Assembly (NCBI GenBank): GCA_021157625.1 | Contig: JAGGWD010000005.1 | Location: 2,118-66,117, forward strand | Direction: 5' to 3' | From: a bacterium | GTDB taxonomy: Bacteria; Patescibacteriota; Minisyncoccia; Minisyncoccales; JAGGXC01 | Length of the DNA: 64,000 bases | In this document: piece after piece, positions 14,142-20,085 of the stretch | Layout: every line of letters starts with the position of its first letter | Numbering within the stretch: the stretch's first letter is position 1 | The notes under the pieces: model-generated | What the model was told of the DNA's origin: nothing | Database searches by the model: none | The model's input: the letters and a program-made list of their open reading frames with translations, nothing else | Translations under genes and position numbers: made by a program

Positions 14142-14171
14142 AAAAGGGGTTCTTTGTAAAACCCCCTTTTA
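14141..14171. terminator. Bidirectional terminator between convergent genes
   Basis: aaaagggg (14142-14149) ... cccctttt (14163-14170). Confidence 0.65.
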
Positions 14172-15767
14172 TTTAGATTTCCCTGTCAATAACACAGGAT
14201 TTTTTCTTGCTTTCTCCCAAATATCATCGATCAACTTCTTGCCTGTTTCTCCTTCCCATTCTTTTATAGCCATTCCATATTTCTTTCTTAGTTCTTCTCC
14301 GAATCCAAGTCCATTGTAGAGACAAAAAGACATAAGACCTTCCTCGGTAATATACTGAATTACACACCTCTCTACCCTGGGTTTGAGCTGAATATTCCAC
14401 GGATCCTGGAACCACATTGAACCAATAAGAATAGTATTATAATGAAATTCTCCTAGCGAAGAGTAATCTCCTTTGATCAAGGCTTTTGCGATTATACTTC
14501 CTAAGTTCTCTAATCCTTTCGGTAGATTCTCTTTAATAATGAATTTTTTGAGATTGGTAAGTAATAGAAATCCTATCTTCAAATTTACCAACACTCCCTG
14601 TTTTTTCAAAAGATTATTGCTGACAAATTCCATAAACCTTTCAACATTGATAAATCTTGTAATAGGTACTGCCTTCTTTTGCTCTCTGTCCCAGAAAACA
14701 TAAGTAGCTCCTCCACACATTGGATTTGGCGAAAACTGAGGATATTCTTTGGATCTTATCTTCTCTATGAGTCTTCTTATAGGATCCACGAAAGGCACCG
14801 GATAAAAATCCCATCTTGTTATTTCTTTGTTAAACTCCTTTTCAAGAACTTCAAAGAGATCGACATAATCTACCCTCTGTTCTCTTAAAAACTTCTCATT
14901 AATCTGGCGGATACTTCCTGCCATCGCAATTGGTTGAAAAATCACTCCTCTAACTACATCTCTATTTTCTATGGCATATCTTACAACTTTACCCATCTCC
15001 TCTAAGTTTTGGCGATGGACTGTTGGGACCAAAACAACGCTTCTTATCCCCGCCTTTCTGAGGTTTTCAATAGCTTTTTTTGAGTATTCTATCCATGGAT
15101 TCGTCTTTTCTGTAACGCCATCAAAACTTATATAGATTGTGTTGATAAGTCCTTTTAGCTTTTTGCAGAATTCTATCTCCTCAGCTAACCTTATTCCATT
15201 TGTATTTAATTGAACATGCGTAAAGTGTTCTCTCGCAAACTTCAGAATCTCAAGAATATCCTCTCTCACAGTAGGTTCACCTCCAGTGATTTGAATTGCT
15301 ATCCCTCCTGCTTCTTTAGCAGCCAGCATCATCTCTTTTAGCACTTCTAAAGGAGGATCGTAGACATATCCTGCTCGCCCAGCATTCATAAAGCAATACC
15401 AGCATCTAAGGTTGCATCGATTTGTTACCAAAAGATTTACCAACAAAGGCCAAGAACGATGCTTTTCATAGAGCTCTTCACCTCCAGGGTATCCCAAAAG
15501 AATAGGACCTTTTGGAGCTCTTCCTATACTCTGATATCTCATCCATTTCCTCCAGAGCTGTGCATCTCTAAAAACGATATCTTCAAATCGACCATGCTTT
15601 GGACAGTTCTTTACTATCCATATTTGATTTGATTTTTCAATGAGCAATGCAGGAATGGTTTTTATTTCTCCCTCTTGAAAACAGCCAGGACAGATTGATA
15701 CTACTTGCATTGGAAGCTCGCTTTCCTTATCCTTTATATCTTCTACCATTCTCCCACCTTCTCTCAT
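14169..15767 (-). CDS. Radical SAM enzyme of the COG1964/MJ0619 type (tetraether-lipid-synthase Tes/GDGT-MAS-like architecture)
   Basis: N-terminal CPGC...CPKHG knuckle, CNLRCWYC radical-SAM motif, TGGEPT, and C-terminal CVIQY...SFCLYN. The likely true start is ATG 15749, preceded by AAGGTGGGAGA. Confidence 0.7.
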   Translation of the reverse strand: MREGGRMVEDIKDKESELPMQVVSICPGCFQEGEIKTIPALLIEKSNQIWIVKNCPKHGRFEDIVFRDAQLWRKWMRYQSIGRAPKGPILLGYPGGEELYEKHRSWPLLVNLLVTNRCNLRCWYCFMNAGRAGYVYDPPLEVLKEMMLAAKEAGGIAIQITGGEPTVREDILEILKFAREHFTHVQLNTNGIRLAEEIEFCKKLKGLINTIYISFDGVTEKTNPWIEYSKKAIENLRKAGIRSVVLVPTVHRQNLEEMGKVVRYAIENRDVVRGVIFQPIAMAGSIRQINEKFLREQRVDYVDLFEVLEKEFNKEITRWDFYPVPFVDPIRRLIEKIRSKEYPQFSPNPMCGGATYVFWDREQKKAVPITRFINVERFMEFVSNNLLKKQGVLVNLKIGFLLLTNLKKFIIKENLPKGLENLGSIIAKALIKGDYSSLGEFHYNTILIGSMWFQDPWNIQLKPRVERCVIQYITEEGLMSFCLYNGLGFGEELRKKYGMAIKEWEGETGKKLIDDIWEKARKNPVLLTGKSK

Positions 15768-15781
15768 CTTTATTGATTTTC

Positions 15782-15809
15782 AAAAAAAAGTCAATGCTTT
15801 TGGCATTGA
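15782..15809 (-). terminator. Intrinsic terminator after the polyprenyl synthase gene
   Basis: Minus strand: TCAATGC CAAAA GCATTGA, then C and T8. It overlaps a TTGACT -35-like hexamer upstream of the radical SAM gene. Confidence 0.65.
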
Positions 15810-15840
15810 AAGAGGCTTCTTTGAAACTAAACAAGATTTT

Positions 15841-18879: not shown

Positions 18880-18911
18880 TTCAATCAGAAATTAATGTTT
18901 CTATTATTTTA

Positions 18912-18920
18912 TGATATAAT
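18912..18920 (+). promoter_or_regulatory. Extended -10 promoter (TGaTATAAT) for the GT4 gene
   Basis: TG 18912-18913, TATAAT 18915-18920. ATG is at 18934 with no SD. Confidence 0.45.
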
Positions 18921-18933
18921 AAAATAAAAATTA

Positions 18934-20085
18934 ATGAAAATTGGATTTTTCACCAATACCTATTTACCCATTCCTTACGGAATGGAGATTTCAATTGAGA
19001 GCTTTCGAAAAAACCTCGAAAAAATGGGTCACGAGGTTTTTATATTTGCTCCTTATTACAAAGGATACAAAGATACAAACCCGCGCATTTTCCGATTTAG
19101 AGCAATAAAAGTCTTCAGAAAAAAAGAAGTTTACTTCCCCTTTCCTTTTCTTGCTCAAAACGCTCGATTAAGAGATATTTTAAGCATTAAATTTGATATC
19201 GTCCATGCTCACTCTCCATTTAGCATGGGACTGTTTGCCAAATACATATCTTCAAGACAAAAAATTCCTTTGGTCTATACTCACCATATCCAATATGCCA
19301 AATATGCCAAGCTGTATTTCAAAAGAAGATTAATTCCTCCTTTCTTGGCAAGAAAATGGAGTAAATGGTTCTCAAATCTTTCTGATTTAGTAATTGCTCC
19401 TTCTTTCAAAATAAAACATATCCTGGAAGATTATGGTGTAAAGAAGAAAATAATAGTATTGAGTACCGGCATTGATACTAATGTCTTCAAGAAATCAAAA
19501 GAGCCAAAAAAATTAATCAGAAAGAAACTCAATCTTCCCTTGCAATCCAAAATTCTTTTGTTTGTTGGAAGGATTGAGATTGAGAAAAATCCTAGTTTTT
19601 TAATCCAGACCCTACCCAGAATTCTCAAATCCAGAAAAGATGCAGTCCTTTTAATAATAGGAGAAGGAAGCTTCCGAAATGCACTTCAAAAACAAGTGCA
19701 GAAAATGAATATAGAGAAATCAGTAATCTTTACTGGCAAGATTCCTCATTCAAAAATTCCTTTTTATTATCAAAGTTCTGATATTTTTGTTTTTTCTTCT
19801 TTAACTGAAACTCAAGGAATCATATTGTTGGAAGCAGCAGCTTGTGGTCTTCCTATTGTAGCTCTATGGGATGAAGCATTTTTAGATGTAGTGCAAGATA
19901 AAAAAAATGGCTTTCTTGTTAGAAAAGAAAGTCCAGATATCTTTGCAAAAAAGATCTTATATATTCTTAACAATCCTTCTATTTATATGAAATTTTCCTC
20001 TGCCTCTCAAAAAATAGGCCAATCTTTTTCAGAAATAAAACAAACCAAAAAACTTTTGGAAATTTATAATAGCCTGATAAAATAG
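18934..20085 (+). CDS. GT4 (GT-B) glycosyltransferase, similar to diacylglycerol glucosyltransferases
   Basis: MKIGFFTNTYLPIPYGMEISIESFRKNLEKMGHEVFIF and a C-terminal E-x7-E region (SLTETQGIILLEAAACGLPIV). Confidence 0.8.
   Translation: MKIGFFTNTYLPIPYGMEISIESFRKNLEKMGHEVFIFAPYYKGYKDTNPRIFRFRAIKVFRKKEVYFPFPFLAQNARLRDILSIKFDIVHAHSPFSMGLFAKYISSRQKIPLVYTHHIQYAKYAKLYFKRRLIPPFLARKWSKWFSNLSDLVIAPSFKIKHILEDYGVKKKIIVLSTGIDTNVFKKSKEPKKLIRKKLNLPLQSKILLFVGRIEIEKNPSFLIQTLPRILKSRKDAVLLIIGEGSFRNALQKQVQKMNIEKSVIFTGKIPHSKIPFYYQSSDIFVFSSLTETQGIILLEAAACGLPIVALWDEAFLDVVQDKKNGFLVRKESPDIFAKKILYILNNPSIYMKFSSASQKIGQSFSEIKQTKKLLEIYNSLIK

What the first reader, a model, noticed from the sequence alone, without database searches (positions are those of the whole stretch)
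14169..20085. Lipid-type cluster: Tes/MJ0619-like radical SAM enzyme, polyprenyl synthase, GT2(-enolase) and GT4
Seen, in four adjacent genes:
1. A 532-aa radical SAM protein with an N-terminal CPGC...CPKHG knuckle, CNLRCWYC, and C-terminal CVIQY...SFCLYN.
2. A trans-polyprenyl diphosphate synthase with both DDxxD motifs.
3. A GT2 domain.
4. A divergently transcribed GT4 whose N-terminus resembles diacylglycerol glucosyltransferases.

Established: the architecture in (1) is that of the COG1964/MJ0619 family. That family includes the archaeal tetraether lipid synthase (Tes/GDGT-MAS). Bacterial homologues have been proposed as makers of membrane-spanning lipids.

Inference: this organism, of a type usually assumed to scavenge lipids, may make or remodel isoprenoid-derived or membrane-spanning glycolipids.

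Caveat: a terminator-like hairpin (15782-15809) separates (1) from (2), so they may not be co-transcribed.
Basis: partly seen in the sequence, partly recalled or inferred. Interest (0 to 1): 0.75.

Follow-up and report, generated by a model that had tools for sequence, protein, structure and literature searches.

The report
Archaeal tetraether-synthase gene in CPR bacterium
A tiny, lipid-scavenging type of bacterium (candidate phyla radiation) stably carries a divergent copy of the archaeal enzyme that welds two lipid tails into one membrane-spanning lipid. The enzyme family is already known, and the neighbouring "lipid" genes are ordinary housekeeping genes of this lineage, not a proven pathway.

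Summary
The 532-aa radical SAM protein belongs to the Tes/GDGT-MAS family:
- It scores 453.7 bits on NCBIfam NF045702 (cut-off 450).
- It matches PDB 7TOL at E = 2e-106 over its full length, and the AlphaFold model matches at TM 0.84-0.90.
- Every metal ligand used by its archaeal subfamily is kept.

The host is a Nealsonbacteria-like CPR bacterium. The order GT4 / GT2-enolase / IDS / Tes / miaA recurs in at least 10 related CPR contigs, so the neighbourhood is not unique to this contig.

That order lies inside a ~25-kb housekeeping synteny block running from FtsZ to DnaE. IDS and GT4 are families found widely among CPR bacteria. Tes is separated from IDS in two lineages. A terminator-like hairpin precedes Tes at the same position in three genomes. 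No archaeal core-lipid gene is found in the 64-kb window.

CPR Tes sequences fall among archaeal ones (Aenigmarchaeota, Thermoplasmatota), which implies transfer between domains. The Tes core has also been swapped between close relatives: flanking genes are 79-91% identical, Tes only 59%.

The window's clade is fast-evolving. It has changed 20 of 141 otherwise invariant positions, and these changes concentrate around the active-site lid and the catalytic cluster.

Most likely role: coupling the tails of ready-made membrane lipids. The substrate is unknown.

The parts
14169..15767 (-). Tes/GDGT-MAS-family radical SAM protein (532 aa; possibly 526 aa if it starts at Met7, nt 15749). Ligands in window numbering: rubredoxin-type knuckle C26/C29/C55/H58; radical SAM cluster C118/C122/C125; C-terminal auxiliary [4Fe-4S] cluster C351/C468/C482 plus Met451; Tyr472. 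It lacks the N-terminal auxiliary-cluster Cys triad.
   Evidence: NF045702 453.7 bits against cut-off 450. 7TOL E = 2.1e-106, query 16-505. Ligand table. Invariant columns. Model pLDDT 88.6, with Foldseek 7TOM/7TOL TM 0.84/0.89-0.90.
15781..15809 (-). Intrinsic-terminator-like hairpin plus T-run in the 73-nt spacer between IDS and Tes.
   Evidence: A hairpin plus T-run is also found between IDS and Tes in L009 (2331-2351, same sequence) and L003 (8726-8751, different stem). In L031 and L032 the IDS-Tes gap is only 13-21 nt.
15841..16863 (-). Short-chain trans-isoprenyl diphosphate synthase of the archaeal/type-I GGPP-synthase kind. It has DDIID and DDILD motifs and Phe at position -5 from the first motif.
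   Evidence: PF00348 199 bits. Best NCBIfam hit IdsA_Meth 224 bits (cut-off 468), then GGPP_syn 189 (cut-off 500). Best PDB hits 4dhd 2.8e-62 and 1wy0 4e-42, aligned at ELIHNYSLIYDDIID. Homologues with source names are labelled Nealsonbacteria, and JGI calls them GGPP synthase type I.
18160..18879 (-). GT2 glycosyltransferase domain (aa 1-240) of the GT2-enolase fusion; substrate unknown.
   Evidence: PF00535 and PF10111. Best NCBIfam hit TIGR04283 118 bits, cut-off 182. Fused to enolase in L003, L009, L020, L030 and L035. A separate but adjacent gene in L028, L031, L032 and L033.
16876..18117 (-). Enolase (aa 255-668) of the fusion; a glycolytic housekeeping enzyme.
   Evidence: TIGR01060 483.6 bits against cut-off 300; Enolase_N and Enolase_C.
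18934..20085 (+). GT4 glycosyltransferase, divergently transcribed. Nearest family is alpha-monoglucosyl-diacylglycerol synthase (Mgs), but it scores below that family's cut-off.
   Evidence: NF049988 188.5 bits (cut-off 400), aligned 1-383 to 1-389/398; next best is BshA at 110 bits. Homologues occur in several CPR groups, and JGI names 8 of them 1,2-diacylglycerol 3-alpha-glucosyltransferase. Absent from the locus in L020, L030 and L032.
11952..14141 (+). MiaB-MiaA fusion (tRNA modification), convergent with Tes. miaA is the constant downstream neighbour of Tes in every CPR locus of this lineage examined (not in the separate lineage L022). No functional link is implied.
   Evidence: Pfam UPF0004, Radical_SAM, TRAM and IPPT. 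Synteny.
38085..38837 (-). Context: bacterial-type CDP-diacylglycerol synthase (CdsA). It shows the organism handles phosphatidate-type lipids.
   Evidence: PF01148 151 bits; CarS-like only 23 bits.

Best explanation
The gene at 14169-15767(-) encodes a working, divergent member of the tetraether-synthase (Tes/GDGT-MAS) radical SAM family in a Nealsonbacteria-like CPR bacterium.

Mechanism, inferred from the M. jannaschii enzyme:
1. The CX3CX2C cluster cleaves SAM.
2. The 5'-deoxyadenosyl radical removes a hydrogen from the terminal methyl of a saturated lipid tail.
3. The substrate radical is held on a sulfide of the C-terminal [4Fe-4S] cluster (C351/C468/C482/Met451).
4. A second SAM turnover on a second tail then forms a tail-to-tail C-C bond.
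5. The product is a membrane-spanning or macrocyclic lipid.

In this organism the substrate is most likely a ready-made membrane lipid that the cell assembles from scavenged parts or takes from its host, not the product of a dedicated pathway next door.

The gene came from archaea by transfer between domains. It is kept at one locus (IDS | Tes | miaA) across the lineage, and its core is exchanged between lineages. IDS, GT2-enolase and GT4 are housekeeping neighbours. IDS probably supplies the primer for the peptidoglycan carrier lipid. GT4 probably makes a glucosyl-diacylglycerol-type lipid.

Shown here: family membership, fold, ligands, conservation, synteny, allele replacement and purifying selection. 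Inferred: the chemistry, the substrate and the role in the cell.
For: Family membership:
- NF045702 453.7 bits against cut-off 450.
- 7TOL E = 2e-106 over the full length.
- Model pLDDT 88.6, and all four domains superpose on 7TOM/7TOL at TM 0.84-0.90; the next hits share only the radical SAM core at TM ~0.3.
- Rubredoxin, radical SAM and C-terminal cluster ligands, plus Met439 and Tyr459 (Mj numbering), are all kept.
- The missing N-terminal cluster is also missing in all Aenigmarchaeota, Thermoplasmatota and Hadarchaeota relatives examined.

Constraint: intact ORFs in 10 members of the window's clade, with dN 0.19-0.28 against saturated dS.

Conservation: Tes occupies the same locus in the window and in at least 10 further CPR contigs (window, L003, L009, L020, L028, L030-L033, L035; L001/L011 and L006 on the miaA side only).

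Archaeal origin: the closest non-CPR relatives are archaeal, and CPR clades are interleaved with them.

Bacterial, peptidoglycan-bearing host with CdsA.

A stand-alone gene, not part of an operon, in this clade: a terminator-like hairpin at the same position in three genomes, and separation from IDS in L001 and L006.

Literature:
- GDGT-MAS co-purified with E. coli phospholipids, and phosphatidic acid was modelled in its active site (PMC9433317).
- Nealsonbacteria-type CPR lack lipid synthesis (bioRxiv 10.1101/2022.04.20.488981).
Against: - No bacterial Tes homologue has been tested biochemically.
- Haloarchaea carry Tes homologues yet make no GDGTs, so membership does not guarantee the product.
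- GDGT production is strongly harmful in engineered E. coli (PMC12042123).
- The window's clade sits on the edge of the family model: 428-464 bits, against 510-592 for the other CPR and archaeal members tested.
- That clade has replaced 20 of 141 otherwise invariant residues. These include the lid Arg275 (Ser in 7 of 10 members, the window among them) and residues beside the catalytic cluster.
- Two clade members have lost rubredoxin ligands.
- The substrate pool of this organism is unknown, and only 64 kb of the genome was seen.
Confidence: 0.55

Rival explanations
1. One reading: IDS, Tes, GT2 and GT4 form a dedicated pathway. The cell would itself build isoprenoid-based (archaeal-like) membrane-spanning glycolipids. 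IDS would supply GGPP, Tes would couple the saturated tails, and the glycosyltransferases would add head-group sugars.
For: - The gene order GT4 / GT2(-)enolase / IDS / Tes recurs across relatives whose IDS is only 54-57% identical to the window's.
- The IDS-Tes gap is only 13-21 nt in L031 and L032.
- IDS is of the archaeal type-I GGPP-synthase kind.
- GT4 is closest to a diacylglycerol glucosyltransferase.
- A related Nealsonbacteria genome has an IDI-IDS-UbiA cassette.
Against: - No GGGPS, DGGGPS, G1P dehydrogenase, GGR or CarS was found in the 64-kb window or in the ~20-kb flanks of about 10 relatives.
- The whole ~25-kb region is syntenic and is mostly unrelated housekeeping genes.
- IDS and GT4 homologues are found widely in CPR, and IDS occurs at loci with no Tes beside it.
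- GT4 is absent from the locus in three genomes.
- Tes is detached from IDS in L001 and L006.
- A terminator-like hairpin lies between IDS and Tes in the window's clade.
- The L036 UbiA cannot be assigned (at most 37 bits to any family) and has no homologue in any DNA held.
Confidence: 0.15
2. The window's clade has taken on a new function. It is still a radical SAM C-H-activating enzyme with the Tes fold. Its target or outcome has changed, for example a different lipid class, a polyprenyl carrier, or a single-tail modification in place of coupling.
For: - 20 of 141 otherwise invariant positions have changed, against 2-3 of ~150 in three control clades.
- 10 of the 20 lie in three short segments: the lid loop (Mj 264-277), the stretch before Cys338, and Cys455-Cys470. 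Fisher p = 3e-4, but the segments were chosen after seeing the data.
- HMM scores are 100-130 bits below the other members tested, and P0008 falls below the cut-off.
- Rubredoxin ligands are lost in P0004 and P0008.
- The Tes core is exchanged and accelerated independently of its flanks.
Against: - All catalytic-cluster ligands, Met439, Tyr459 and the SAM-binding GGEP motif are kept.
- The overall fold is unchanged.
- The protein still scores above the equivalog cut-off.
- There is no new domain and no new conserved partner gene.
Confidence: 0.2
3. The gene is a passenger or a decaying relic of horizontal transfer, with no present role.
For: Fast evolution of the clade. Loss of rubredoxin ligands in two members. 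A slightly higher GC3 than neighbouring genes, 0.33 against 0.25-0.29.
Against: - Full-length intact ORFs are kept in very small genomes across many lineages.
- dN is far below dS.
- Catalytic ligands are invariant.
- When the gene is replaced, it is replaced by another intact Tes allele.
Confidence: 0.05

Closest known systems
GDGT-MAS / Tes of Methanocaldococcus jannaschii (MJ0619; PDB 7TOL, 7TOM) and Tes of Methanosarcina acetivorans (MA_1486)
   Same: Same four-domain fold (TM 0.84-0.90, 40-42% identity). Same rubredoxin CX2C...CX2H, radical SAM CX3CX2C and C-terminal [4Fe-4S] ligands. Met439 and Tyr459 are kept.
   Different: - No N-terminal auxiliary [4Fe-4S] Cys triad (C73/C77/C80), a trait shared with its archaeal subfamily.
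- Lid Arg275 is Ser, Asn266 is Ile, His458 is Gln and Pro468 is Ser.
- The host is a bacterium with peptidoglycan and CdsA.
- Activity is untested.
Tes homologues (~507 aa) of Aenigmarchaeota, Thermoplasmatota and Hadarchaeota
   Same: Same subfamily without the N-terminal cluster. 48-53% identical to the window protein and 60-68% identical to the other CPR Tes types.
   Different: They sit in archaeal genomes; the L017 context is deoxyhypusine synthase, PAC2 and KaiC. They score 565-592 bits on NF045702, against 454 for the window protein.
Bacterial Tes homologues (Acidobacteria, Chloroflexota, Planctomycetota and others) proposed to make brGDGTs
   Same: A bacterial host, the same family, and function proposed but never shown (PMC8941075; PMC11868695).
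   Different: The best of those are reported as at most 42% identical to archaeal Tes. The CPR genes branch inside the sampled archaeal Tes sequences at up to 68% identity. The CPR host is a presumed lipid auxotroph.
Mss, the bacterial membrane-spanning-lipid synthase of Thermotoga and Thermoanaerobacter
   Same: A radical SAM enzyme that couples lipid tails. Its homologues in DPANN archaea were proposed to remodel lipids taken from a host, which is the mirror image of the present case (PMC13159169, PMC11868695).
   Different: A different radical SAM family: BLAST with a confirmed Tes found no homologue in the Mss-bearing species Thermotoga maritima and Thermoanaerobacter ethanolicus. Not compared by sequence here.

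Membership tests
Tes / GDGT-MAS (NCBIfam NF045702; Pfam PF23545 + PF04055) | Full-length match above the curated equivalog cut-off | tested here: met
   453.7 bits against 450, model positions 3-484 of 486. This is borderline. Clade mates score 464, 456 and 428. Other CPR and archaeal members score 510-592.
Tes / GDGT-MAS | Four-domain fold of 7TOL (rubredoxin, N-terminal domain, radical SAM core, C-terminal cluster domain) | tested here: met
   Model pLDDT 88.6, pTM 0.89. Foldseek 7TOM/7TOL E ~2e-49, TM 0.84/0.89-0.90, rmsd 2.6-2.7 A over ~510 columns.
Tes / GDGT-MAS | Radical SAM CX3CX2C plus rubredoxin-type CX2C...CX2H | tested here: met
   C118/C122/C125 and C26/C29/C55/H58 align with Mj C98/C102/C105 and C9/C12/C33/H36.
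Tes / GDGT-MAS | C-terminal auxiliary [4Fe-4S] ligands with labile Met439, plus conserved Tyr459 | tested here: met
   C351, C468, C482, M451 and Y472 are invariant in 32 aligned sequences. The roles of Met439 and Tyr459 are taken from PMC9433317.
Tes / GDGT-MAS | N-terminal auxiliary [4Fe-4S] cluster (Mj C73/C77/C80 plus His) | tested here: not met
   The window has Y/E/Y at these positions and keeps only the His. The same is true of every Aenigmarchaeota, Thermoplasmatota and Hadarchaeota relative examined. The triad is present in Mj and in L022. It is therefore a feature of one subfamily and not of the whole family.
Tes / GDGT-MAS | Active-site lid loop with Gln268 and Arg275 | tested here: inconclusive
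   Gln is kept. Arg275 is Ser in the window and in 7 of 10 clade members. Asn266 is Ile and Phe272 is Met.
Tes / GDGT-MAS | Tail-to-tail C-C coupling of saturated lipid chains | not testable with these tools
   Needs an enzyme assay or heterologous expression followed by LC-MS.
Archaeal diether/tetraether lipid pathway | G1P dehydrogenase, GGGPS, DGGGPS, CarS and GGR in the same genome | tested here: inconclusive
   None is present in the 64-kb window; what is there is a bacterial CdsA. None is present in the flanks of related loci. The rest of the genome could not be searched.
TrsS radical SAM (seleno)protein (NF045646) | Score above the equivalog cut-off | tested here: not met
   227 bits against 490, and only the N-terminal ~300 residues match.
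Short-chain trans-IDS / type-I GGPP synthase | Two DDxxD motifs, no insertion in the first, aromatic residue at -5; equivalog score | tested here: inconclusive
   The motifs DDIID and DDILD and Phe at -5 are present. All NCBIfam equivalogs score below cut-off: IdsA 224/468, GGPP_syn 189/500. Product chain length is inferred, not shown.
alpha-Monoglucosyl-diacylglycerol synthase Mgs (NF049988) | Score above the equivalog cut-off | tested here: not met
   188.5 bits against 400, although the alignment is end to end and this is the best family by ~80 bits. JGI names several homologues as DAG glucosyltransferase.
Enolase (TIGR01060) | Score above the equivalog cut-off | tested here: met
   483.6 bits against 300 for aa 255-668 of the fusion.

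The most novel reading that the evidence does not exclude
These CPR bacteria belong to a group that includes epibionts of methanogenic archaea. They take saturated diether lipids (archaeol-type) from an archaeal host, or iso-branched lipids from a bacterial one. They then use the acquired Tes to weld these into tetraether or macrocyclic membrane-spanning lipids. The result would be a bacterium with an archaeal-style monolayer membrane made by remodelling, not by synthesis. The repeated swapping and the fast evolution of the Tes core would then track changes of host lipid or of temperature.
Probability: 0.15. Interest if true: 0.85.

Novelty: new member of a known kind. Interest (0 to 1): 0.5.

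Why it matters
CPR bacteria are thought unable to make their own lipids, so how they build and tune a membrane is an open question. An archaeal lipid-tail-coupling enzyme that is retained, kept under purifying selection and repeatedly exchanged gives a concrete, clonable candidate for lipid remodelling in a symbiont.

It also bears on two other questions. One is who produces the tetraether (GDGT and brGDGT) biomarkers used as palaeoclimate proxies. The other is how permeable the bacterial-archaeal "lipid divide" is. Three CPR allele types and a fast-evolving clade form a natural series for testing what sets substrate specificity in Tes.

The limits are plain. The family and its bacterial homologues have been known since 2022. 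No activity has been shown for any bacterial member. The "cluster" itself is mostly housekeeping synteny.

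Tried and rejected
- A Biopython bootstrapped NJ tree timed out. I replaced it with my own numpy NJ plus bootstrap. No maximum-likelihood program was available, so deep branching (supports of 39-71%) is not trusted.
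- I searched the supplements of Zeng et al. 2022 for CPR taxa, to learn whether they recorded Tes in CPR. Nothing was held as text.
- Literature searches for tetraether or GDGT-MAS together with Parcubacteria, Paceibacteria or Nealsonbacteria found no paper that links them.
- A genome-wide check for GGGPS, DGGGPS, G1PDH and GGR was not possible.
- The UbiA next to IDS in L036 looked like a lead to a DGGGPS. It cannot be assigned (at most 37 bits to any family, no PDB hit) and has no homologue in the window or in any held locus.
- TrsS and the old MJ0619 annotation as a pterin methyltransferase (HMPTM) were considered and rejected. TrsS scores far below its cut-off. Lloyd et al. could not reproduce the HMPTM activity.
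- A functional link to the ever-present neighbour miaA/miaB (which uses DMAPP) was considered and dropped. The genes converge on each other, and miaA/miaB are ordinary tRNA-modification genes.
- The absence of the N-terminal cluster was first read as a peculiarity of CPR. It proved to be a trait of the whole archaeal subfamily.

Full report
**Observation.**
- Radical SAM protein, 14169-15767(-), 532 aa.
- Trans-isoprenyl diphosphate synthase (IDS), 15841-16863(-), 340 aa.
- GT2-enolase fusion, 16870-18879(-), 669 aa.
- Divergently transcribed GT4, 18934-20085(+), 383 aa.

The quoted motifs are all present. Pfam and NCBIfam confirm every domain at scores far beyond chance. The hairpin also exists. 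It is a 7-bp stem with a 5-nt loop followed by a T-run, on the coding (-) strand at 15809-15781, inside the 73-nt IDS-Tes spacer. The true start of the radical SAM gene may be Met7 at 15749, behind GGTGGGAG.

**Host.** The window carries:
- a bacterial 23S rRNA fragment, bacterial RNase P RNA and an L10 leader;
- four tRNAs;
- cell-wall and division genes MurJ, MurB, FtsZ, FtsEX and YceG, plus SecA/D/F;
- a bacterial CdsA.

GC content is about 35%. The nearest named homologues of Tes, IDS and GT4 are "Candidatus Nealsonbacteria", "Parcubacteria" or "Patescibacteria". The organism is therefore a CPR bacterium of the Parcubacteria/Nealsonbacteria type. This group is reported to lack lipid synthesis, and some members attach to methanogenic archaea.

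**The radical SAM protein is a Tes/GDGT-MAS family member.**
- It scores 453.7 bits on the NCBIfam equivalog "tetraether lipid synthase Tes", whose cut-off is 450.
- It aligns end to end with M. jannaschii GDGT-MAS (7TOL, E = 2e-106).
- An AlphaFold model (pLDDT 88.6, pTM 0.89) superposes on 7TOM/7TOL over ~510 columns (TM 0.84/0.89-0.90, rmsd 2.6-2.7 A). The next PDB hits share only the radical SAM core at TM ~0.3.

I checked the ligands using the numbering in Lloyd et al. 2022 (PMC9433317). My reconstruction of the Mj sequence reproduces that numbering. Conserved are the rubredoxin C9/C12/C33/H36, the radical SAM C98/C102/C105, the C-terminal cluster C338/C455/C470, the labile Met439 and Tyr459. 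The N-terminal auxiliary-cluster triad C73/C77/C80 is absent. It is equally absent from every Aenigmarchaeota, Thermoplasmatota and Hadarchaeota relative I examined. Its absence therefore defines an archaeal subfamily and is not a defect peculiar to CPR.

**Relatives and origin.** The window protein belongs to a tight clade of ten CPR sequences, which I call W. They are 62-74% identical to each other, with 100% bootstrap support. All other relatives are about 48-53% identical to the window protein.

Many of those relatives turned out to be CPR too, sitting at the same locus. This was shown directly for L020, L028, L030-L033 and L035. For several others it was inferred from shared contig lengths between the Tes and IDS hit lists. 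My NJ tree has three CPR clades:
- W, the window's clade.
- B, with 99% support, lying weakly next to Aenigmarchaeota.
- A, which joins a Thermoplasmatota-containing clade with 99% support.

Type A and type B proteins are 60-68% identical to archaeal proteins. For example, L020 is 68% identical to a Thermoplasmatales protein encoded on a 1.9-Mb contig. Tes is reported in 24 of 27 archaeal phyla, whereas the CPR copies found here come from one syntenic lineage plus the separate L022. I therefore infer transfer from archaea to CPR. The number and direction of transfers are not resolved by an NJ tree. A separate CPR lineage (L022, Parcubacteria ADurb.Bin247) carries an independent, Mj-like Tes that does have the N-terminal cluster, in a different context.

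**Is it a lipid gene cluster?** The order FtsZ - NTP transferase - carbohydrate kinase - TrxR - (GT4) - GT2(-)enolase - IDS - Tes | miaA - miaB - (DUF5667) - ThrRS - DnaE recurs in the window, L003, L009, L020, L028, L030-L033 and L035. The conservation, however, is that of a ~25-kb housekeeping block, and several observations weaken a functional link:
- In L001/L011 and L006, Tes keeps miaA on one side but has MreC-PBP2 in place of IDS on the other.
- GT4 is missing from the locus in L020, L030 and L032.
- IDS homologues grade smoothly from 80% down to 53% identity. Where they carry source names, these are Nealsonbacteria. Many are fused to IDI, and some sit at loci with no Tes (L034, L036).
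- GT4 homologues are spread across several CPR groups.
- The enolase passes the equivalog cut-off and is presumably the cell's glycolytic enzyme.
- A terminator-like hairpin separates IDS from Tes in the window, L009 and L003, and L003 has a different stem sequence. By contrast, L031 and L032 have gaps of only 13-21 nt.
- No archaeal core-lipid gene appears in the Pfam scan of the window's main ORFs (about 60).

IDS has a sufficient housekeeping role as supplier of the FPP/GGPP primer for the peptidoglycan carrier lipid. This rests on established knowledge of undecaprenyl diphosphate synthesis and is an inference for this organism.

**Unusual evolution of Tes at the locus.** L028 and L033 are close relatives: nine flanking genes are 79-91% identical. 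Their Tes proteins are only 59% identical and fall in different, well-supported clades.

Nucleotide identity between the two runs as follows:
- 0.71-0.90 through IDS, the spacer and the first ~90 nt of Tes;
- 0.56-0.69 across most of the Tes core (one 90-nt window reaches 0.77);
- back to 0.71-0.84 in the last ~180 nt of Tes and in miaA.

This pattern suggests replacement of the gene's core by recombination. Likewise, L030 is 64-78% identical to the window in flanking genes but only 49% identical in Tes.

The W clade has changed 20 of 141 positions that are at least 97% invariant in the other 122 subfamily members. Three control clades changed 2/150, 2/154 and 3/146. Ten of the 20 changes lie in three short segments:
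- the active-site lid loop (Mj N266 to I, F272 to M, R275 to S);
- the stretch just before the Cys338 ligand;
- the Cys455-Cys470 stretch (H458 to Q, P468 to S).

The enrichment has an odds ratio of 7.3 and p = 3e-4, but I chose the segments after seeing the list. Consistent with this divergence, W proteins score 428-464 bits on the Tes model, against 510-592 for the other CPR and archaeal members tested. W is nevertheless under purifying selection, with dN 0.19-0.28 and saturated dS.

**Interpretation.** The best-supported reading is a working Tes-type enzyme that couples the terminal methyl groups of two saturated lipid tails. The mechanism is taken from Lloyd et al.. It would act on membrane lipids that this lipid-auxotrophic cell assembles or takes up, and it would operate as a stand-alone gene. 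The substrate is open. It could be:
- archaeal diethers from an archaeal host;
- iso-branched bacterial lipids, whose tail ends are chemically identical to those of phytanyl chains;
- ordinary acyl lipids.

The M. jannaschii enzyme binds E. coli phospholipids, although turnover was shown only on archaeal lipids.

Membrane-spanning lipids would suit a warm habitat, and there are hints of one. Window proteins have an IVYWREL fraction of 0.429, which gives about 67 C by the Zeldovich regression. tRNA GC content is 56-61%. By their isolate and sample names, relatives appear to come from Auka hydrothermal sediments and from hot springs (my reading of the names). These hints are weak.

Points against the reading:
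- No bacterial Tes homologue has ever been assayed.
- Haloarchaeal homologues make no GDGT.
- GDGT is toxic to engineered E. coli.
- The W clade's divergence allows a changed function.

**Novelty.** The family, its structure and the existence of bacterial homologues are known. Zeng et al. 2022 even included CPR in their BLAST survey. I found no paper that links tetraether synthesis to Parcubacteria or Nealsonbacteria.

New here are three things: the stable syntenic locus in a CPR lineage, its position among archaeal Tes sequences, the swapping of the gene core, and the fast-evolving W clade. I rate it a new member of a known kind and of moderate interest. Interest would be high only if lipid remodelling of host archaeal lipids were demonstrated.

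Noticed in passing
L028:8857-12489 versus L033:8001-11592: The core of the Tes gene has been replaced between two closely related CPR genomes. Nine flanking genes are 79-91% identical, Tes only 59%. Nucleotide identity drops about 90 nt into the ORF and recovers about 180 nt before its end, which suggests recombination breakpoints inside the gene.
   Followed up: partly
window 11952-14141 (+): MiaB and MiaA are fused into a single 729-aa ORF. The fusion is also present in L003 and L009. In the other relatives the two genes are separate, often with other genes between them.
   Followed up: partly
window 16870-18879 (-): A GT2 glycosyltransferase is fused to a full-length enolase. The fusion recurs in L003, L009, L020, L030 and L035. 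In L028, L031, L032 and L033 the two are adjacent or overlapping separate genes, sometimes with two GT2 copies. The GT2 acceptor is unknown; the persistent pairing with enolase may hint at a phosphoglycerate-type acceptor.
   Followed up: partly
L022:9983-11503: A different Parcubacteria MAG (ADurb.Bin247) carries an independently acquired Tes of the M. jannaschii type. It has the N-terminal Cys triad and scores 583 bits. It lies between an AA_kinase-family gene, F-type ATP synthase genes and uvrBAC. Tes has therefore entered CPR more than once.
   Followed up: partly
L036:5504-8032: A Nealsonbacteria MAG (GCA_026396115.1) has an IDI - IDS - UbiA-family prenyltransferase cassette with no Tes adjacent. 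The 285-aa UbiA matches no curated family (best 37 bits to MenA, 29 bits to DGGGPS) and has no PDB relative. Its prenyl acceptor is unknown.
   Followed up: partly
P0004 and P0008 (members of the window's Tes clade): Two clade members have lost rubredoxin-knuckle ligands (Mj C12 and H36 positions) while keeping all [4Fe-4S] ligands. The rubredoxin domain may be dispensable in this clade.
   Followed up: no
window, all proteins; tRNAs at 24193-24267, 39822-39895, 42749-42820 and 42831-42902: The amino-acid composition suggests growth at raised temperature: IVYWREL 0.429, about 67 C by the Zeldovich regression, and charged-minus-polar 9.9. tRNA GC is 56-61%, although genome GC is only 35%.
   Followed up: partly
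L017:9836-11539: An Aenigmarchaeota Tes lies on a 255-kb contig among clearly archaeal genes (deoxyhypusine synthase, PAC2, KaiC). This argues against the suggestion in Zeng et al. 2022 that DPANN Tes genes are host contamination.
   Followed up: partly
window 10317-11858 (+): A 513-aa secreted-looking protein with DUF5667, a Kazal-type inhibitor motif and a Cys-rich C-terminus. It is conserved at this position in several relatives (L001, L009, L020, L031, L032).
   Followed up: no
window 45597-47561 (-) and 50882-52504 (-): A 654-aa protein carries a type IV pilin-like N-terminal methylation motif fused to cadherin/Big_9 and NosD/beta-helix domains. Nearby is a TrwB/TraG-like coupling ATPase with a treble-clef zinc finger. 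Both are candidates for host-contact or DNA-uptake machinery.
   Followed up: no
window 24603-26693 (+), 29224-30282 (-) and 52509-53777 (-): Three large ORFs (696, 352 and 422 aa) have no significant Pfam match.
   Followed up: no
window 590-1210 (+) and 45253-45675 (+): These listed ORFs overlap the 23S rRNA fragment and the RNase P RNA and are almost certainly not genes.
   Followed up: yes
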